Shown here in pieces: positions 4,176 through 11,759 of a stretch of DNA of 64,000 nt (position 1 is its first letter; the number at the start of each line of letters is the position of its first letter). The position numbers were made by a program, and so were the translations under genes. The DNA is from Coraliomargaritaceae bacterium. GTDB lineage: Bacteria; Verrucomicrobiota; Verrucomicrobiia; Opitutales; Coraliomargaritaceae. The DNA lies in contig CBFHKU010000006.1 of the NCBI GenBank assembly GCA_965656495.1, positions 1 through 64,000 of the forward strand, written 5' to 3'. A model generated the notes under the pieces. That model did not search any database. It had not been told where the DNA came from and saw only the letters and a list, made by a program, of their open reading frames with translations.

Positions 4176-5363
4176 ATGAATCAGCAACGGATAAGGTATT
4201 GGACATTAATGGTATTGCTCCCACTGAGCATCGCCGCAGCGACCAAGGAGGTACAACTAAAGAGCGGGGAACGTCTCTTGGGGGAAGTGCTGCCCGGCTC
4301 GGATGCACAAACCCTGCACCTGCGGTCTAAGGTTCTGGGCGATTTAAAGCTACCCCGCAGTTCCATTGCTTCGACCAAGGACTTGCCCGTGCCGCAACCT
4401 GCGGTAGCCGCCAAGCCCGCACCGAAACCTGCACCCGCACCGAAACCCGCGGTAGCCGCGAAACCCGTGCCGCAACCTGCGGTAGCCGCCAAGCCCGCAC
4501 CGAAGCCTGCACCCGCACCGAAGCCTGCGGTAGCCGCCAAGCCCGCACCGAAGCCTGCGGTAGCCGCGAAACCCGCACCGAAGCCCGCACCGAAGCCCGC
4601 ACCGAAGCCAGCAGTCGCGCAAGCGGAGCCCAAAGCGCCGATGCATTTGCGTATTTGGAAGCATATTAAAGAATTCAAAACCCCGCCTTCATGGAGCGGG
4701 AATCTGCGCCTGGGGCTCAATATCAACACCGGGAACAGTGATTGGACCGAGCAGTATGCGCGCGGGCAATTGTCGATACAACCCAAGGGCAGCAAGAATT
4801 TTTACCGTTTTGGCGGTTCCTACAGCTTCCGCGAAAACGAATACAGCAATGGAACCACGCGGGTCACGAGCGACAAGTATGACCTTTCTGCGCTGTATCG
4901 CCGCAGTTTTTCAAATTCGTGGTTTGTCCAAAACGCCCTCGGTTACCGGATCGATAACGTTAAAGGAATTGAACATGAGACCAAGTATTCGCTGGGTGCG
5001 GGTTATAAATTCAAGTTCTACAAAGATAAAATGGAGGTCAACCTCGGCAGTGGTATTGGTTTTGAGGATTACAAGGCGCGCAATCCCGCCGATCTGCGCA
5101 ACGGGCAGAACCAAATTGCGAATGTCTTTCAGGAATTTACCTGGAAAGTATCAAAGCGCTCCACCATTTCCCAAAAGTTTAATTACTTTCGCAACATCAA
5201 GGATGCGGATTTATATGATTACAATTTTACCGCAGCGTTTCGAACACGCTTAACCGATGTCTTCGGGCTGGAGCTTTCCTACCGCAAAGACTTTGACAGT
5301 GAAGTCGGTGGAAAAAAGAAGGACGACAGCCAGTGGCGCAGTGCCTTCGTGGTTTACTTCTAG
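4176..5363 (+). CDS. DUF481-like outer-membrane beta-barrel protein with Pro/Ala/Lys-rich linker
   Basis: Signal peptide, small N-domain (LKSGERLLG), PAVAAKPAPK repeats, barrel starting WSGNLRLGLNINTGN, and C-terminal aromatic OMP signature (VVYF). Confidence 0.75.
   Translation: MNQQRIRYWTLMVLLPLSIAAATKEVQLKSGERLLGEVLPGSDAQTLHLRSKVLGDLKLPRSSIASTKDLPVPQPAVAAKPAPKPAPAPKPAVAAKPVPQPAVAAKPAPKPAPAPKPAVAAKPAPKPAVAAKPAPKPAPKPAPKPAVAQAEPKAPMHLRIWKHIKEFKTPPSWSGNLRLGLNINTGNSDWTEQYARGQLSIQPKGSKNFYRFGGSYSFRENEYSNGTTRVTSDKYDLSALYRRSFSNSWFVQNALGYRIDNVKGIEHETKYSLGAGYKFKFYKDKMEVNLGSGIGFEDYKARNPADLRNGQNQIANVFQEFTWKVSKRSTISQKFNYFRNIKDADLYDYNFTAAFRTRLTDVFGLELSYRKDFDSEVGGKKKDDSQWRSAFVVYF
4386..4620 (+). repeat. 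Coding tandem repeat (78-bp unit plus nested 12-bp units) encoding PVPQPAVAAK/PAPK
   Basis: cccgtgccgcaacctgcggtagccgccaagcccgcaccgaa recurs at 4386 and 4464, followed by repeated (aag)cccgcaccg units. Confidence 0.9.
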
Positions 5364-5377
5364 CACAAAAAAACCCG
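5364..5377. repeat. Half-site T0: left arm only of the tRNA-Asp terminator repeat; distal boundary of the island
   Basis: CACAAAAAAACCCG directly after the DUF481 stop codon is identical to 5777-5790 and 10421-10434, but no right arm follows. Confidence 0.7.
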
Positions 5378-5460
5378 GCAATTTTAGTGGATCAATTAAA
5401 ACTTGAACACTCCATTACCTCGGAGAAGAGGAAGGGCTTGAGCTTTGGGGCCGAAGAGTT

Positions 5461-5490
5461 TTACTACAGAGGCAGCGAGACACGGAGGAG
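5461..5490 (+). repeat. Left inverted repeat flanking the GxxExxY remnant
   Basis: The reverse complement of gaggcagcgagacacggaggag (5469-5490) matches ctcctccgtatctccgtgcctc (from 5677) at 19/22 positions. Confidence 0.75.
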
Positions 5491-5504
5491 TGATAGGTTT
5501 GGAA

Positions 5505-5638
5505 TTATAGGACGAAGCGCTTGATTCCATCTTTCAAAATGGACACATTAAAATTCATCAGTAGTCCCACCCGGCCCCTAATAGCGGTGCACTTCAATTG
5601 CAGCACCAATGATCTTCTTCAATCAGTGGTTCGGTCAT
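5505..5638 (-). pseudogene. GxxExxY (PD-(D/E)XK_3) nuclease pseudogene with frameshift, nonsense codon and internal deletion
   Basis: The minus strand reads MTEPLIE /+1 shift/ KIIGAAIEVHRY*GPG, fused directly to VGLLMNFNVSILKDGIKRFVL*. These match the N- and C-terminal consensus of GxxExxY proteins (IIGAAIEVHRxLGPGLLE ... GLLINFNVxxLKDGIKR). The catalytic middle is missing. Confidence 0.85.
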
Positions 5639-5675
5639 GATGAGGCATAGTTTTAATTCCATATGCCAAGCAAGC

Positions 5676-5719
5676 CTCCTCCGTATCTCCGTGCCTCCAG
5701 CGAAGCGGGTGGTTAAAAA
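5676..5719 (-). repeat. Right inverted repeat flanking the GxxExxY remnant
   Basis: The minus strand reads TTTTAACCACCCGCTTCGCTGGAGGCACGGAGATACGGAGGAG: an AACCAC head plus a purine-rich ~9-nt periodic body. Confidence 0.75.
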
Positions 5720-5778
5720 TCAGAGCACTGAGGGCCTTACCTATTTGAGCGGGGTTCAGGGGTCGGGGCTGGCTGACA

Positions 5779-5813
5779 CAAAAAAACCCGCGGGCGGGAT
5801 GCCGGCGGGTTTT
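5779..5813 (-). terminator. Intrinsic terminator copy T1
   Basis: Minus-strand RNA AAAACCCGCCGGC-AUCCC-GCCCGCGGG-UUUUUUU, 20 nt downstream of the 5834 stop. Confidence 0.85.
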
Positions 5814-5833
5814 ATGTGAAGTAGTGTAGGATC

Positions 5834-7690
5834 TTAAGCTTTACGCTTTTTATAGGCGGCGAAGCCGGAGAGGAGGAGTCCTAGCAAGAGGGCGTAGGTT
5901 GAAGGTTCGGGAACCATGACGTAGGTGTAAGTGCCGTCGAAGATCGATTTCCATTTGATTTGGTAATTATCAACGGTGGCGAGGGTATAGGTGCCACCGG
6001 TTTTTTCCTCGACCCGGAGATTGGTGTCATCAAGGAGTCCAAAGAGGGTGGTGGGGTCGATGTAGTTACCTTCAATTTTGAGGATGTTCTCATCGGCGAT
6101 ATAGATGTCGGAGAGGTCGAAGGTAGAACCGGCGTCGAACTGGAGGGTATTGCCGGTATTGCCGTCCACCGAGCCGATAAAGACGTCTTTGGCGATGAGG
6201 GCACCTTCAATGATGAGGGCATTGCCATCGGAGCCGACATTTTTACCGACGTAAACGGCTTTGCCGGTGCTGGTGACATCGGCGCTATCGCCCGCCGAGA
6301 GGGTAAGTTTATTGTTGTCGGTGTTTTCGCCGACTATCCAGTCCTCTCTCGATTCAAAACTGAAGCCCTTGATGACTTTATTGTCACCGCCACCATCCAC
6401 CTTGATGAGGGCGTCAATCTCACCGGTGTAAACGGTTTCTTTGGAATAGGTACCGATAAAAAAGCGATTGCCCTTGAGGATCACGGAATAGCCAAATTGA
6501 CTGTTGGCGGTGGCATCGGAGTTGGTGATCTTGACGTTTTCGGTGACGACTCCGGTGGCGGAGTCGAGATCGTGGAAGAGGTAAACACTACCGGCATTAA
6601 CAAGGTTCCCATGATCATCTCGAGGAGCGCCGACGAGGGCGCTGTCACCATCAAGGCTATTGGATTGCCCGAACCAATCGTCTGCTTCGGCATCGGAGGC
6701 GGTGAGTTTAGCGTTTTCGGTGACGGTGCCGGTGGCGGTGTCGAGATCGCGGTAAAGATACGACGAGCCTGCTTTAGTTATCCCTCCGGGGCTATTAAAT
6801 CGGGCGCCAACAAGGGCGGATGAGCCGGAAAGGCTGGAGGCGTGCCCAAAGCGATCGTTTTCGGCGGCATCGGAGGCGGTGAGCTTGACGTTTTCGGTGA
6901 CGGTGCTGCCCTGGGCGGCGGCGTCGAGATTGCGGAAGAGGTATGCCGCGCCGGCAAATGTAAATCCTCCATGGTCTGCACCGTCCGCGCCGATGAGGGC
7001 GGTATCACCGACGAGGCTTATGGATTTACCGAAATAATTTTCTGTGGCGGCATCGGAGGCGGTGAGCATGGCGTCTTCGGTGACGGTGCCGGTGACGGTG
7101 TCGAGATTTCGGAAGAGGTATCCCGTGCCGGCATTCGTTTTGCCTACATGGTTATCTCCATACGCAGCAACGAGAGCGATGTTGCTCGAAAGACCTAAGT
7201 TAAAGCCGAAATAATCGTTTTGGTCGGGATTGGAAGCGGTAAGCTTGGCGTCTTCGGTGACGGTGCCGGTGGCGGTGTCGAGATTCCTATAGAGATATGC
7301 CGAGCCGGCAAAACGAATGCTTCCATTATTATCTGAATGTGCGCCGACGAGGGCTCTGTTACCCAAAAGGCCTACGTCTGCGCCGAAACCATTACCTTGG
7401 GCCGGGTCAGAGGCGGTGAGCTTGATGTTTTCGGTGATGCTTGGATTCGGGTTGGTGTCGATATCACGGAAGAGGTAGGCGGAGCCGGCATAATCAAAAC
7501 CAGCATGGGCATCATTTCGCGCACCCACGAGGAGGGAGGAGCCATCTAAGCTCAGTGCTCCACCGAAATAATCTCCGGCTTCGCCATCAGAGGCGGTGAG
7601 TCTTTCGACGGCATCCAAATGGGCGGTGAGAAGGCAAATCAAAGCGAGCAGTCCGCCGAATCGTTTACTGTGTATGGGTTGAAGATTCAT
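5834..7690 (-). CDS. PEP-CTERM surface protein with seven FG-GAP (integrin-alpha-like) propeller repeats, paralogue A
   Basis: Signal peptide; 7 x LTASD..D.FG...L.G..ALVGA....AG.AYLFR.LD; a beta-rich C-terminal region; VPEPSTYALLLGLLLSGFAAYKKRKA sorting signal. Confidence 0.92.
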   Translation of the reverse strand: MNLQPIHSKRFGGLLALICLLTAHLDAVERLTASDGEAGDYFGGALSLDGSSLLVGARNDAHAGFDYAGSAYLFRDIDTNPNPSITENIKLTASDPAQGNGFGADVGLLGNRALVGAHSDNNGSIRFAGSAYLYRNLDTATGTVTEDAKLTASNPDQNDYFGFNLGLSSNIALVAAYGDNHVGKTNAGTGYLFRNLDTVTGTVTEDAMLTASDAATENYFGKSISLVGDTALIGADGADHGGFTFAGAAYLFRNLDAAAQGSTVTENVKLTASDAAENDRFGHASSLSGSSALVGARFNSPGGITKAGSSYLYRDLDTATGTVTENAKLTASDAEADDWFGQSNSLDGDSALVGAPRDDHGNLVNAGSVYLFHDLDSATGVVTENVKITNSDATANSQFGYSVILKGNRFFIGTYSKETVYTGEIDALIKVDGGGDNKVIKGFSFESREDWIVGENTDNNKLTLSAGDSADVTSTGKAVYVGKNVGSDGNALIIEGALIAKDVFIGSVDGNTGNTLQFDAGSTFDLSDIYIADENILKIEGNYIDPTTLFGLLDDTNLRVEEKTGGTYTLATVDNYQIKWKSIFDGTYTYVMVPEPSTYALLLGLLLSGFAAYKKRKA

Positions 7691-7807
7691 CTTATAATTG
7701 GGTTTTATATGTGTATCAATATCCTTAGATATAATGGTATATACAGACCAATTGTAATATTAGAATAGTCAACAGATAAATTTTCATAATTCTTGTCATA
7801 GTGTTGC

Positions 7808-7914
7808 TGAGCTTCGGCCCTTCGACCCTTCGGCAAGTTCAGGGTGATACACCTTTTGACCCTTTGGCCCTTCGACAGGCTCAGGGTTCTTAACTCTTGG
7901 ACAAGCTGAGGGTT
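7808..7914. repeat. Cluster of three REP-like palindromes (CCCTTCGACAaGCTCAGGG type)
   Basis: acccttcggcaagttcagggt (7825-7845), gcccttcgacaggctcagggt (7867-7887) and aactcttggacaagctgagggtt (7892-7914), plus stuttered CCCTTCG heptamers. Confidence 0.7.
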
Positions 7915-7926
7915 CTCTTTGGGGAG

Positions 7927-8033
7927 GGGGTGGCTCGCCCGCCCGGATTTGTGGTAGGTGGGGCGCGGCGATGGAGGACGCGGGTTGGGAGGGTGGCGCA
8001 AAAAAACCCGTCGGCGTGGTACCGGCGGGTTTT
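7927..8033. repeat. ~103-bp junction repeat ending in terminator copy T2
   Basis: Aligns by eye with 10021-10123 (ggctcgcc...ggcgcggcgatggaggacgcgggttggg...ggtggcgcaaaaaaacccgtcggcg). Hairpin at 7999-8033. Confidence 0.9.
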
Positions 8034-8053
8034 ATGTGAAGTAGTGTAGGATC

Positions 8054-9907
8054 TTAAGCTTTACGCTTTTTATAGGCGGCGAAGCCGGAGAGGAGGAGTC
8101 CTAGCAAGAGGGCGTAGGTTGAAGGTTCGGGAACCAAGACGTAGGTGTAGGTGCCGTCGAAGGTCGATTTCCATTTGTCTCCGTAATTATCAACGGTGGC
8201 GAGGGTGTAGGTGTCACCGGTTTTTTCCTCGACCTGGAGATTGGTGTCATCAAAGAGGGCGAAGAGGGTGGTGCTGTCGCTGTAGTCGCCTTCGATGACG
8301 AGGCGGTTGTCCCAGGCGAGGAAGATGTCGGCGAGGTCGAAGGTGGCCCCGGCTTCGATTTGGAGGGTATTGCCGGTATTGCCCGCGACCGATCCGATAT
8401 AGAGGTCATTGGCAACGAGGTCGCCCTCGAGGACAAGGGTGTTGCCATCGGAGCCGGCATTTTGCCCGATGAGAACGGATTTACCGGTGCTGGTGACATC
8501 GGCGCGGTCGCCGGAGGAGAGGGTGAGCCGATTGTTATCGGTGTTTTGACCGATGACCCAGTCCTCTTTGGATTCAAAACTGATGCCCCGGATTACGTCG
8601 GTGCGATCACCGTCGTCCATGGTGGTGAGGGAACTGATCGTGCCGGTATAGGCTTTGCCATTTGCTCCGATGATAAAACGATTGCCCTTTACACTCACGG
8701 AATAGCCGAACCGATCGTTAGCGGCGGCATCGGAGGCGGTGATCTTGACGTTTTCGGTGACAGTACCGGTAGCGGAGTCGAGATTGCGGTAGAGGTAGGC
8801 CGCGCCGGGAGGAGTATTCCCGAGCTCAGTACGAGGCGTGCCGACGAGGGCGGTGTTCCCGTCGAGGCTTGCGGAGTGGCCGAACCAATCACTCACAGCG
8901 GCATCGGAGGCGGTGAGCTTGACGTTTTCGGTGACCGTGCCGGTGGCGGTGTCGAGATTGCGGAAGAAGTAGGCCGCGCCGGTACTAGAAACCCCCCCGT
9001 GGTCAGCTTGATACGCGCCGACGAGGGCATTGTTCCCGTCGAGGTTCACGAAATTGCCGAAATTATTGTGATTGGCGGGATTGGCGGCGGTGAGCTTGAC
9101 GTTTTCGGTGACGGTGCTGCCCTGAGCGGCGGTGTCGAGATCGCGGAAGAGGTATGCCGCGCCGGCACCAATATTCGCCCCGTGGTTAGCACTACTCGCG
9201 CCAACGAGGGCGTTGTTCCCGTCGAGGCTTGCGGAGGAGCCGAAACTATCGTAATTGGCGGCATCGGAGGCGGTGAGCTTGACGTTTTCGGTGACCGTGC
9301 CGGTGGCGGTGTCGAGATTGCGGAAGAGGTATGCCGCGCCGACATCATCATTCCCCCCGTAGTTAGCACTACTCGCGCCGACGAGGGCGTTGTTCCCGTG
9401 GAGGCTTGCGGAGGAGGCGAAACTATCGTAATCGGCGGCATCGGAGGCGGTGAGCTTGACGTTTTCGTTGACGGTACCGGTAGCGGTGTCGAGATTGCGG
9501 TAGAGGTAGGCCGCGCCGGCATTAGAAACCCCCCCGTGGTCCGCATATGTCGCGCCGACGAGGGCGTTGTTCCCGTGGAGGCTTGCGGAGGAGCCGAAAC
9601 TATCGTAATTGGCGGCATCGGAGGCGGTGAGCTTGAGGTTTTGTATCGTGGGTGCGGCGGTGGTACCGGTAGCGGAGTCGAGATCGCGGAAGAGGTATGC
9701 CGCGCCGGCTTCAGAAAGCCCCCCGTGTTCAGCACTAATCGCGCCGACGAGGGCGGTGTTCCCGTCGAGGCTTGTGGACCAGCCGAAACCATCGTATGCG
9801 GCGGAATCGGAGTCGGTGAGCACGGCGGCGTGCAAGTGGGCGCTGAGGAAGCAAAACGCCGCGAGGCTGCCGCCGAGGTATTTACGATATGTCTGTCTTG
9901 TATTCAT
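8054..9907 (-). CDS. PEP-CTERM surface protein with seven FG-GAP propeller repeats, paralogue B
   Basis: Same architecture as 5834-7690. Internal repeats are near-identical at DNA level (~174-nt period), and the PEP-CTERM tail is identical to that of paralogue A. Confidence 0.92.
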   Translation of the reverse strand: MNTRQTYRKYLGGSLAAFCFLSAHLHAAVLTDSDSAAYDGFGWSTSLDGNTALVGAISAEHGGLSEAGAAYLFRDLDSATGTTAAPTIQNLKLTASDAANYDSFGSSASLHGNNALVGATYADHGGVSNAGAAYLYRNLDTATGTVNENVKLTASDAADYDSFASSASLHGNNALVGASSANYGGNDDVGAAYLFRNLDTATGTVTENVKLTASDAANYDSFGSSASLDGNNALVGASSANHGANIGAGAAYLFRDLDTAAQGSTVTENVKLTAANPANHNNFGNFVNLDGNNALVGAYQADHGGVSSTGAAYFFRNLDTATGTVTENVKLTASDAAVSDWFGHSASLDGNTALVGTPRTELGNTPPGAAYLYRNLDSATGTVTENVKITASDAAANDRFGYSVSVKGNRFIIGANGKAYTGTISSLTTMDDGDRTDVIRGISFESKEDWVIGQNTDNNRLTLSSGDRADVTSTGKSVLIGQNAGSDGNTLVLEGDLVANDLYIGSVAGNTGNTLQIEAGATFDLADIFLAWDNRLVIEGDYSDSTTLFALFDDTNLQVEEKTGDTYTLATVDNYGDKWKSTFDGTYTYVLVPEPSTYALLLGLLLSGFAAYKKRKA

Positions 9908-10020
9908 TGTATTTTTCTAAAAATTTACGTATATATTATTTAATTTAACTTAAATCAGGTTTTAGCATTATTATAAAATCAGAAAAAAGCAATAAATAAA
10001 ATTTATTCAATTATTAAAGC

Positions 10021-10123
10021 GGGGCGGCTCGCCAGTCCGGAGCTGGTTGCAGGTGAGGCGCGGCGATGGAGGACGCGGGTTGGGTGGTGGCGCAAAAAAA
10101 CCCGTCGGCGGGATGCCGGCGGG
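10021..10123. repeat. ~103-bp junction repeat ending in terminator copy T3
   Basis: Second copy of 7927-8029. Core CAAAAAAACCCG at 10093-10104. Confidence 0.9.
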
Positions 10124-10243
10124 ATCCAGCGGGGCGGTGTAAGCGAAAATAAAAGGGACGAGACCGCTTAAGAGGCTACGGCGTGCATGTACGCGGGGGG
10201 GGGGGGTATCATTATATCCATGCAGATTCAAGTAATGTTTCAT
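10124..10243 (-). pseudogene. 5' stub of a secreted-protein gene with a C12 homopolymer tract, truncated at T3
   Basis: MKHYLNLHGYNDTPPPRVHARRSLLSGLVPFIFAYTAPLD (basic then hydrophobic, signal-peptide-like) follows an AT-rich promoter-like region and runs straight into the T3 hairpin. G12 lies at 10195-10206 on +. Confidence 0.55.
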
Positions 10244-10422
10244 GAAATTTATATAAAAGGCAAAATATTTATAATAGAATCATAAATCACTTATTTATTT
10301 ATTTTTTAATGTCAAGTGATTTAATTTTAATTCTCCGGTAATTTCTTGATTATGGACGGCGAAGGTGAGCGTAGTGGGGTGGTCGGGTTTCAGGGTCGCG
10401 TCGGAGGGTCACAGTGGGGACA

Positions 10423-10455
10423 CAAAAAAACCCGCGGGCGTGGTACCGGCGGGTT
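10423..10455 (-). terminator. tRNA-Asp intrinsic terminator (T4)
   Basis: Minus-strand RNA AACCCGCCGGU-ACCAC-GCCCGCGGG-UUUUUUU, starting ~8 nt after the tRNA CCA. Confidence 0.88.
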
Positions 10456-10463
10456 GCTTGCAA

Positions 10464-10541
<78 letters not shown>

Positions 10542-10628: not shown

Positions 10629-11759
10629 TCAGGATTCGATGCGGGCTTGATGGAGTTCGCGGGCGAAGGCGGCAACCACGCCGCTCCAGTCGAGGGTTTC
10701 GGCGGTCTGGCGAGCGGCGGTGCGGATGGCGGGCCAGTCGGAGCGTGATTGGAGTGTGGCGTCCAGTTGGGCGAGGTATTGTTGGGCTTGGTCGAAGGGG
10801 GCGAGGTAGCCGTTGCTGGCGTGCCGGATGTGTTGTTGGGGGGCAGCGTAGTCGTAGGCGAGGGTGACGAGTCCGGAGGCGAGTGCTTCGATGACGACGT
10901 TTCCAAAGGTTTCGGTGACGCTGGGGAAGATGAAGAGGTCTCCGGAGGCGTAGTGGCGGGCGAGGTCTTCGCCTTTTTGCATTCCGGCAAAGATGAACTC
11001 GGGGTGTTGTTTTTGGAGTTGTGGTCGCTCGGGGCCATCGCCGACGAAGACGCAGGCGGCGTCGGGTACTTGGGCGCGGACGCGGGCGAAGGCTTCGAGG
11101 GCGAGGGGGATGTTTTTTTCGGCGGCGATGCGGCTGACGAAGATGGCGGCGATTCCGGTCTGGGGGTCGATTCCCCAGGAACGTCGCAGTGTGGCGTCGC
11201 GCTTGGATGGATGGAATAAGTTGGCATCAACGCCGCGCCCGAGGAGGCGCAGGTTTTGAATACCGAGGGCCTCGAGTTGTTGGATGACTTGGGTGGAGGG
11301 AGCGAAGGTGCGGCGGGTGCGGTTATGGGTGCGGCGGAGGAAAGTGCTGACGAAGGTTTTGAGAAGCGGCATTTTATAGTGGCGCATGTATTCGTGGAAG
11401 TTGGTGTGGAATCCGCTGGTTACGGGGATGCCGAGGGCGCGCGCGGCGGCGATTGCGGAGAGGCCGAGGGGGCCTTCGGTGGCGACGTAGATGACGTCGG
11501 GTGGATCTTTTTTCCAGCGTTTGCGCAGCGAGCCTTTGCAGGGGAGTCCGAATCGCAAGCCATCGTAACCGGGGAGGGGCAAGCCTCGCACAATGCAGTC
11601 GCCGCTGGTGTGGTTTTTAAACGTTTCCGAGCGTTGGCGCGGGCGCACGACGGTGACGGGGTGTCCGCTTGCCCGCAGTCCTTCCGCCAGTCGCGAGAGT
11701 GTCATGGCAACTCCATTGACTTCAGGTGGATAGGTTTCGGTTACAATGCAGACTTTCAT
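10629..11759 (-). CDS. GT4 glycosyltransferase (MgtA/Agt-like, probable glycolipid synthase)
   Basis: Start re-assigned to MKVCIVTETYPPEVNGVAMTL. ATEGPLG, FHTNF, VSRIAAEKN and FPSVTETFGNVVIEALASG motifs. Confidence 0.88.
   Translation of the reverse strand: MKVCIVTETYPPEVNGVAMTLSRLAEGLRASGHPVTVVRPRQRSETFKNHTSGDCIVRGLPLPGYDGLRFGLPCKGSLRKRWKKDPPDVIYVATEGPLGLSAIAAARALGIPVTSGFHTNFHEYMRHYKMPLLKTFVSTFLRRTHNRTRRTFAPSTQVIQQLEALGIQNLRLLGRGVDANLFHPSKRDATLRRSWGIDPQTGIAAIFVSRIAAEKNIPLALEAFARVRAQVPDAACVFVGDGPERPQLQKQHPEFIFAGMQKGEDLARHYASGDLFIFPSVTETFGNVVIEALASGLVTLAYDYAAPQQHIRHASNGYLAPFDQAQQYLAQLDATLQSRSDWPAIRTAARQTAETLDWSGVVAAFARELHQARIES

What the first reader, a model, noticed from the sequence alone, without database searches (positions are those of the whole stretch)
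5364..10460. Integrase-free cassette-like array built inside the tRNA-Asp terminator
Seen: the 12-bp core CAAAAAAACCCG occurs five times in direct orientation (5366, 5779, 7999, 10093, 10423). The last copy is the real tRNA-Asp terminator, three are full hairpin copies, and the first is a bare half-site abutting the DUF481 stop codon. Deleting everything between the first and last cores would restore a simple DUF481 -> terminator <- tRNA-Asp junction. The cores delimit four modules: 413 bp (GxxExxY remnant), 2220 bp (FG-GAP PEP-CTERM A), 2094 bp (paralogue B) and 330 bp (poly-C stub). All are co-oriented with the tRNA; three have an AT-rich promoter-like region, and all have a GC-rich end. No tRNA 3'-end duplication and no recombinase are visible in the window. 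Known: tRNA islands normally duplicate the tRNA 3' end, and integron attC sites are hairpins with extrahelical bases. Inference: the terminator hairpin itself may serve as the attachment site for serial capture of surface-protein cassettes by a trans-acting recombinase.
Basis: partly seen in the sequence, partly recalled or inferred. Interest (0 to 1): 0.85.

Follow-up and report, generated by a model that had tools for sequence, protein, structure and literature searches.

The report
Terminator-bounded gene islet behind tRNA-Asp
A marine bacterium has stacked a few acquired pieces of DNA, including two variable cell-surface protein genes, behind one of its tRNA genes; the joints are copies of the tRNA's short stop-signal hairpin instead of the usual piece of the tRNA itself, an odd variant of a common kind of genomic island whose enzyme, if there is one, was not found.

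Summary
In detail: five cores, four full hairpins, none elsewhere in the genome. It is a real insertion hotspot: 5 of 6 congeners have the empty DUF481-hairpin-tRNA-Asp site, and the sixth has a different 735-bp insert between two hairpins. The interpretation needs trimming. The 'half-site' is a deletion scar of a full hairpin. A and B are paralogues with homologous leaders and a 115-nt identical 3' tract, so they are not independent captures. Flank linkage puts exchanges around the hairpin loop, not in the 12-bp core. Eight other tRNAs in this genome carry nearby repeats that keep the tRNA tip; here three different upstream flanks lack it. No integron integrase, IS1182 transposase or orphan recombinase was found; ComEC and DprA are present. 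Best reading (0.5): an additive tRNA islet whose hairpin copies act as short-homology joints for host recombination. Rivals: eroded classical att sites (0.22) and a true terminator att site for a trans recombinase (0.2), hinted at by freely assorting 5-bp loops. The scan already noted similar integrase-less tRNA arrays on other DNA, described there as tip-plus-terminator repeats.

The parts
4176..5363 (+). DUF481 outer-membrane protein gene; conserved flank of the site
   Evidence: Pfam DUF481 E 1.5e-25; abuts the hairpin in 5 empty congeners
5364..5377 (.). Truncated hairpin (T-tract plus part of one arm); remnant of the native, displaced terminator
   Evidence: G006 has a full hairpin here; the window equals G006 minus about 400 bp, joined at a 2-nt microhomology
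5369..5392 (.). Block shared with the interior of the G006 insert (21 of 24 nt, last 17 identical)
   Evidence: score 38, best of 300 shuffles 33; unique in own genome at up to 2 mismatches
5469..5697 (-). Internally deleted GxxExxY (PD-(D/E)XK) gene remnant between REP-like inverted repeats (5469-5490 / 5676-5697)
   Evidence: five intact GxxExxY genes elsewhere in the genome
5777..5813 (-). Hairpin copy H3 (native-type arm, loop type 2); probable terminator of gene A
   Evidence: bridged by contigs in runs X4, X8, X10, X17
5834..7690 (-). Gene A: 618-aa FG-GAP x7 PEP-CTERM surface protein
   Evidence: three database alleles differ at 2-3 residues
7691..7810 (.). AT-rich promoter-like stretch of A (26% G+C)
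   Evidence: function inferred
7817..7963 (.). REP-like repeat inside leader A; 74% copy at C1:144134-144274, its motif at 9 places genome-wide
7997..8033 (-). Hairpin copy H2 (variant arm, loop type 1 as at the tRNA); probable terminator of gene B
   Evidence: bridged by a 797-nt contig without differences in X4
8054..9907 (-). Gene B: 617-aa paralogue of A (62% identical); repeat region hypervariable between alleles
9908..10092 (.). AT-rich stretch (15% G+C) and GC-rich leader B, homologous to leader A
10091..10123 (-). Hairpin copy H1 (variant arm, loop type 2)
   Evidence: bridged by contigs in X4 and X8
10124..10422 (-). 330-bp stub: GC-rich end, AT-rich stretch, short reading-frame start with a C12 run (G12 on +, 10195-10206); no family match
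   Evidence: no match in 100 other family genomes
10421..10455 (-). Hairpin H0, the working tRNA-Asp terminator (native-type arm, loop type 1)
10464..10540 (-). tRNA-Asp(gtc)

Best explanation
An additive, integrase-free islet behind tRNA-Asp. SHOWN: the ancestral site is DUF481-hairpin-tRNA; DNA was inserted so that hairpin copies bound each piece; content differs between species and strains; the distal hairpin later lost one arm by deletion; A and B are paralogues that have recently exchanged 3' ends. INFERRED: once the first insertion left two hairpins in direct repeat, the roughly 33-bp GC-rich repeats became joints for the host's own recombination: unequal crossing-over or slippage between copies, and uptake of a neighbour strain's version of the locus, anchored in the conserved tRNA region and finished at a hairpin microhomology (homology-facilitated illegitimate recombination). 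This adds or removes units at hairpin edges without copying any tRNA sequence and without a dedicated recombinase. The hairpins persist because they terminate the tRNA and the two PEP-CTERM genes; the likely benefit is variation in a surface beta-propeller protein.
For: Empty site in 5 of 5 congeners with DUF481 assembled; different insert in G006. Three different upstream flanks abut a hairpin with no tRNA tip, whereas 8 other tRNAs of this genome carry tip-bearing repeats within 8 kb, so wholesale tip erosion at this one site is unlikely. A and B: homologous leaders (p=0.001) and 115 identical nt (5802-5916 = 8022-8136) ending at the loop, a sign of homologous exchange at these joints. B allele P0002 lost one repeat and has 62 of its 65 changes in the repeat region, so recombination is active here. 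H2 shares its loop with H0, and one X8 contig joins leader A to a hairpin placed at 10423 while most of B is uncovered in that run, as expected if stub+B comes and goes between these two copies. No candidate recombinase: PF00589 finds two Xer-sized genes conserved in congeners and two island integrases beside tmRNA and tRNA-Ser; no integron integrase. ComEC and DprA in 5 of 5 genomes tested. HFIR at 3-10 bp is described in PMC6382021 (passages).
Against: It does not explain the first duplication. 10-33 bp repeats are poor RecA substrates (own knowledge), and HFIR is rare (1e-2 to 1e-3 of homologous transformation, PMC6382021). Plain unequal crossing-over between H1 and H3 predicts loop type 2 at H2, but H2 has type 1, so an extra exchange is needed. 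The X8 evidence is one contig with 18 loose letters, and the gap in B cover could be a diverged allele such as P0002. Competence was not shown, only two genes. Only two filled loci were read in full.
Confidence: 0.5

Rival explanations
1. Classical accretion at the tRNA 3' end (CIME-type tandem): visiting elements integrated at the tRNA tip, each displacing tip+spacer+terminator; integrases and tips were later lost, terminators kept.
For: The same genome does this at other tRNAs: Gly keeps an 11-nt tip plus half a terminator, and His has a distal copy of the congener-type downstream sequence with only a degenerate 8-9-nt tip. In G006 the distal hairpin has the 8-nt loop of the empty G003 site and a 5-nt tRNA-end match at about the right distance (p 0.05 and 0.10), while the tRNA-proximal hairpin has a 7-nt loop. 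H1 starts with 8 nt identical to the tRNA end. PMC2612704 notes that such repeats can vanish (passages).
Against: No significant tip at H1, H2, H3 (p 0.15-0.92); three separate flanks would each have to erode to within 2 nt of the hairpin, while tips survive at 8 other tRNAs. No viral contig with this tRNA-Asp end plus hairpin among 29 pattern hits.
Confidence: 0.22
2. One reading: the terminator hairpin is a true attachment site. Its 8-bp inverted arms bind a trans-acting tyrosine recombinase and the 7-bp spacer (2 constant + 5 variable bp) is the overlap, tolerant of mismatch as with IntDOT; cassettes enter as circles, mainly at the tRNA-proximal copy.
For: The repeat is exactly the hairpin with sharp edges against 3 upstream and 4-5 downstream flank types. 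The two loop types alternate along the array and assort independently of both flanks, all four arm/loop combinations being present. IntDOT needs only 1-2 bp of identity in the overlap (PMC2817482, abstract). A mismatch in the stem is kept in the empty sites of G001, G003, G005 and in G006 while loops vary.
Against: Alternation of two loop types over four sites has a 1-in-3 chance. No orphan recombinase in G000 or four congeners; no mobile element carrying the hairpin among 3 viral and 56 metagenome hits, which are unrelated terminators; no circle joint. Loops in empty sites are 7-10 nt long, which does not suit a fixed overlap. Only one cargo type is an intact gene.
Confidence: 0.2
3. A hairpin-targeting transposase that duplicates the whole palindrome on insertion (a behaviour I recall for some IS1182-family elements) made the copies; the modules are decayed or non-autonomous elements.
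For: Would give tip-less, sharp-edged hairpin duplications. Recalled only; three searches or reads did not confirm the behaviour.
Against: No PF13751 match in 4 of 4 genomes; no terminal inverted repeats at module ends among the 25 longest of 33 inverted pairs; a target duplication should give identical flanking copies, but neighbours differ in loop or arm. The one IS110 in G000 has flanks unrelated to the hairpin.
Confidence: 0.05
4. Chance likeness of generic GC-rich terminators, or misassembly.
For: Similar perfect hairpins occur in unrelated bacteria (56 metagenome loci). No listed contig bridges the G12 run to H0.
Against: No other copy in the genome at up to 1 mismatch; the half-site, H3, H2 and H1 junctions are bridged by contigs from up to 4 studies; G006 repeats the architecture.
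Confidence: 0.03

Closest known systems
CIME / site-specific accretion tandems at tRNA or tmRNA ends (PMC5704250, passages; Dehalococcoides ssrA islands, PMC3146451, passages)
   Same: Stack of integrase-free units behind a tDNA, each bounded by a direct repeat of the target; strain-variable cargo; 15 of 31 ssrA islands also lack an integration module.
   Different: There the repeat is the gene's 3' end (20 bp of ssrA) and the integrases are known; here it is the terminator only and no integrase is linked.
tDNA-targeted genomic islands as defined by Islander (PMC4383910, first third of the text and passages) and tRNA-SSR islands of Burkholderia (PMC2612704, passages)
   Same: Foreign DNA 3' of an intact tRNA, empty site in relatives.
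   Different: No displaced tRNA fragment and no integrase, so Islander's filters would reject it.
Additive flexible genomic islands of Alteromonas (PMC4119200, passages)
   Same: A tRNA acts as target for cassettes that are added or lost between strains of a marine bacterium.
   Different: Much smaller; bounded by terminator copies, not tRNA-end repeats.
Integron cassette arrays / CALIN (own knowledge; integron features as in PMC4119200)
   Same: Co-oriented units separated by imperfect hairpins.
   Different: No IntI, hairpins only about 23 bp of stem-loop without attC boxes, and units appear to carry their own promoters.
CTnDOT / IntDOT overlap with mismatch tolerance (PMC2817482, abstract)
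   Same: Inverted arms around a 7-bp spacer with 2 constant and 5 variable bases (the 7-bp and 5-bp figures for IntDOT are recalled).
   Different: Resemblance of geometry only; no integrase, arm-type sites or conjugation genes.

Membership tests
tDNA-targeted integrase island (Islander definition) | Intact tRNA at one end, empty site in relatives | tested here: met
tDNA-targeted integrase island (Islander definition) | Displaced tRNA 3' fragment at the far end | tested here: not met
   none in the window; borderline 5-nt trace in G006 (p 0.05-0.10)
tDNA-targeted integrase island (Islander definition) | Tyrosine integrase inside the island | tested here: not met
CIME / accretion tandem | Integrase-free units bounded by direct repeats of the target site | tested here: met
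CIME / accretion tandem | Repeats are att sites of an identifiable integrase, with a mobilising element known at the same site | tested here: inconclusive
   none found in 7 congeneric genomes or in viral contigs; few strains available
CIME / accretion tandem | Excision and cis-mobilisation | not testable with these tools
   only assembled contigs were available
Integron / CALIN | Integron integrase in the genome | tested here: not met
   TIGR02249 over cut-off in 0 of 5 genomes
Integron / CALIN | attC anatomy (long hairpin with R and L boxes; definition recalled) | tested here: not met
   short stem-loop read directly; no attC model was run
REP / RAYT system | Hairpin dispersed through the genome, Y1 transposase beside it | tested here: not met
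   4 copies, all here; two Y1 genes on other contigs
Xer / pdif module | Full 11-6-11 dif-like sites at module ends | tested here: not met
   an 11-mer beside H2 and H3 resembles a XerD arm (consensus recalled) but has no XerC arm; the same 11-mer lies inside a coding gene; the chromosomal dif was not identified
IS1182-like palindrome-duplicating IS | Transposase and terminal inverted repeats | tested here: not met

The most novel reading that the evidence does not exclude
An intrinsic terminator doubles as a site-specific attachment site: a recombinase supplied in trans exchanges strands across the hairpin's 7-bp loop region, tolerating mismatched 5-bp coupling sequences, and stacks self-promoted surface-protein cassettes behind tRNA-Asp without touching the tRNA gene; such arrays would be invisible to island finders that look for tRNA fragments, integrases or attC.
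Probability: 0.2. Interest if true: 0.8.

Novelty: new variant of a known kind. Interest (0 to 1): 0.42.

Why it matters
Under any reading it shows that tRNA islets can be delimited by terminator copies alone, so fragment-based island finders miss them, and it marks a locus that varies a PEP-CTERM surface propeller in a small-genome marine Opitutia lineage. If the hairpin is a real att site it would be a new targeting rule for cassette capture. On present evidence it is more likely an unusual-looking case of ordinary tRNA-hotspot accretion plus host recombination.

Tried and rejected
Rfam: only the tRNA passes. Hairpin patterns: 1 hit in genome contigs, 3 in viral and 56 in metagenome contigs; the viral and metagenome hits are unrelated terminators, each single-copy, with no further homology to the locus. 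tRNA-Asp end plus hairpin start: 29 viral hits, none a tRNA or tip; 80 of 120 or more genome hits were listed and read, 2 were tRNA-Asp, neither with a duplicate. Phage blastn gave only tRNA matches among the 20 of 933 records listed. FG-GAP protein: no viral locus, three distant genome loci, no match at E<=1e-40 in 6 congeners and only large multi-domain homologues in 5 of 100 family genomes; donor not found. G006 insert: no match in 250 other order genomes including G000 (35; loci could not be cut out); stub: none in 100 family genomes. XerD-arm lookalike rejected. Homology of stub leader and module-1 leader, suspected by eye, not significant (p=0.19). The X10 joint 5392->10423 is not counted as an excision: it fits the G006-type insert of a 92%-identical relative in that run. 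Missing cover of B in X8 and X17 is not counted as proof of deletion. IS110, Y1 and resolvase genes show no link to the hairpin (54, 55, 57, 60; Y1 and resolvase flanks were not read). Paper searches found no description of terminator-only cassette arrays; the library lacks most subscription papers and no supplements were read, so this is no proof of absence. No structure was predicted.
Full report
Setting. The window is contig C6:1-64000 of a 2.06-Mb genome. The stretch is held by marine and aquatic metagenomes of six studies. A public record titled as an Opitutia MAG carries the same type of hairpin; the placement in Opitutia rests on that and on gene content.

Observation. All coordinates check out. 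The repeat is really the whole terminator: T-tract, two 8-bp arms and a 7-bp spacer, about 33 bp. Four full copies exist in the genome, all in this 5-kb interval. Cargo: a GxxExxY remnant, two FG-GAP x7 PEP-CTERM genes, 62% identical, and a stub with no family match. Contigs from four studies bridge the half-site, H3, H2 and H1 between them, so the array is not a misassembly; one of these runs may be the source sample, and no listed contig crosses the G12 run.

Relatives. DUF481 was found in 27 of 41 genomes. I fetched the downstream DNA for 17. All 5 congeners have DUF481 stop, one hairpin, tRNA-Asp; the 12 members of other genera do not have tRNA-Asp there. The sixth congener, G006 (92-95% identical in the flanks), has two full hairpins 735 bp apart around unrelated DNA. 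So the site is a real hotspot and the insert is bounded by hairpins.

The half-site. G006 has a full hairpin against the DUF481 stop, and about 400 bp further in carries the 17 nt that follow the half-site in the window (p=0.003). The window's half-site is therefore best read as a deletion that removed one arm, the loop and about 390 bp, joined at a 2-nt microhomology. It also suggests that G000 and G006 share one ancestral insertion.

Where exchanges map. Aligning ten hairpins: the dinucleotide next to the 12-bp core travels with the leader (native type at H0 and H3, variant type at H1 and H2), so exchanges lie on the loop side of it and not in the core. The two loop types alternate along the array and follow neither flank. 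A and B have homologous leaders and 115 identical nt that end at the loop (mismatch offsets 22 and 138). Simple unequal crossing-over between H1 and H3 does not give H2's loop; an exchange with H0 does. In run X8 one contig joins the last 18 nt of leader A to a hairpin placed at 10423, and 8389-9039 of B has almost no cover, which fits loss or absence of stub+B between H0 and H2. A diverged B allele would also explain the gap: P0002 keeps B's first 30 and nearly all of its last 200 residues but has 62 changes and one repeat fewer in the propeller.

Context in the genome. Of 36 tRNA and tmRNA genes, 8 have a direct repeat that includes the tRNA tip within 8 kb, several around small cargo without an integrase. 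Relatives are empty or partly filled at Gly, Met, Pro and His. At Gly the distal copy is an 11-nt tip plus half a terminator; at His the distal copy has the congener-type downstream sequence and only a degenerate tip. So tRNA-end accretion and erosion are routine here, which favours rival 1. Against it, Asp is the only site with clean terminator-only copies, at three different flanks. The survey covered all of G000 but only 40 + 20 + 6 fetched regions of congeners: 114 tRNA rows, 7 dropped for short flanks; downstream-only hits at Cys and Arg(acg) are a tandem unit and a short repeat, not terminator copies by eye.

Enzymes. G000 has four PF00589 matches: two of about 316 aa with counterparts in congeners (read as XerC/D by size and conservation) and two island integrases next to tmRNA and tRNA-Ser. 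No integron integrase, no IS1182-type transposase, one IS110 with unrelated flanks, two Y1 genes, one resolvase near the tmRNA island. ComEC and DprA are present in 5 of 5 genomes. A visiting element could still have supplied an enzyme.

Mechanism. I commit to hairpin copies acting as short-homology joints for host recombination (0.5), with eroded classical att sites (0.22) and a true terminator att site (0.2) as live rivals. The empty and alternative states, the deletion scar, the paralogy and the flank linkage are shown; the enzyme and the order of events are inferred.

Literature seen. PMC4383910 (first third and passages), PMC4119200 (passages), PMC2612704 (passages), PMC3146451 (passages), PMC5704250 (passages), PMC6382021 (passages), PMC2817482 (abstract and outline), PMC3852290 (passages, not useful). 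Ten searches showed no terminator-only array; no supplements were read. attC anatomy, dif layout and IS1182 behaviour are recalled. Earlier notes of this scan describe integrase-less tRNA or tmRNA arrays in other genomes; I did not test them, and they gave the leads to the ssrA-island and CIME papers.

Verdict. Real, strain-variable tRNA islet; a new variant of a known kind; interest 0.42, or 0.8 if the hairpin proves to be an att site.

Noticed in passing
G000 C1:109848, C1:300184, C2:198584, C3:173940, C5:166075, C7:47234 (tRNA-Ser, Met, Pro, Met, Leu, His); also L279, L300, L274, L109: Gene-less units of about 80-170 bp right behind tRNAs: terminator or spacer, a GC-rich palindromic body, then a second copy of the last 18-24 nt of the tRNA. 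Shared between congeners at His, Met and Phe.
   Followed up: partly
G000 C6:84670-85400, C1:169050-173820, C2:196795-198660, C7:47234-48833: Small integrase-free tRNA islets (0.65-4.7 kb) bounded by tip-plus-terminator repeats, with cargo resembling HicAB, BrnT/CopG and ParE/Phd toxin-antitoxin pairs and an AAA ATPase (names by eye, not tested). The Gly islet is partly shared with G006.
   Followed up: partly
window 8054-9907 and P0002: Gene B varies almost only in its FG-GAP repeats (62 of 65 differences, one repeat lost), while three alleles of A differ at 2-3 residues; suggests repeat shuffling and diversifying selection on B.
   Followed up: partly
window 10195-10206: G12 run (C12 on the coding side) just after an ATG in the stub; contigs in X4 and X8 stop at or in it. 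Could be a phase-variable tract of a lost gene or an assembly weak point.
   Followed up: no
window 10629-11759: A family-4 glycosyltransferase gene lies upstream of tRNA-Asp in G000, G003 and G006, while in G001, G002 and G004 the miaA-like gene start follows the tRNA region directly.
   Followed up: no
G000 C1:4502-4673: Two orphan tRNA-Ser 3' fragments (23-26 and 19-21 nt) around a palindromic unit near a contig end, far from the tRNA-Ser genes in this assembly.
   Followed up: no
G000 C31 (1478 bp), ends on C13, C16, C18: An IS110-family element assembled as its own contig, with end copies at three other contig ends and shorter end-like copies on C16 and C7.
   Followed up: partly
window 4380-4625: Pro/Ala/Lys-rich low-complexity linker in the DUF481 protein built from 12-54-bp repeats; open-frame length varies from 347 to 396 aa among congeners.
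   Followed up: no
L018:5740-5830: Inside the G006 insert, a second unrelated hairpin with a long T-run sits just before the 17-nt block shared with the window; the insert has no long ORF and no match in 250 other genomes.
   Followed up: partly
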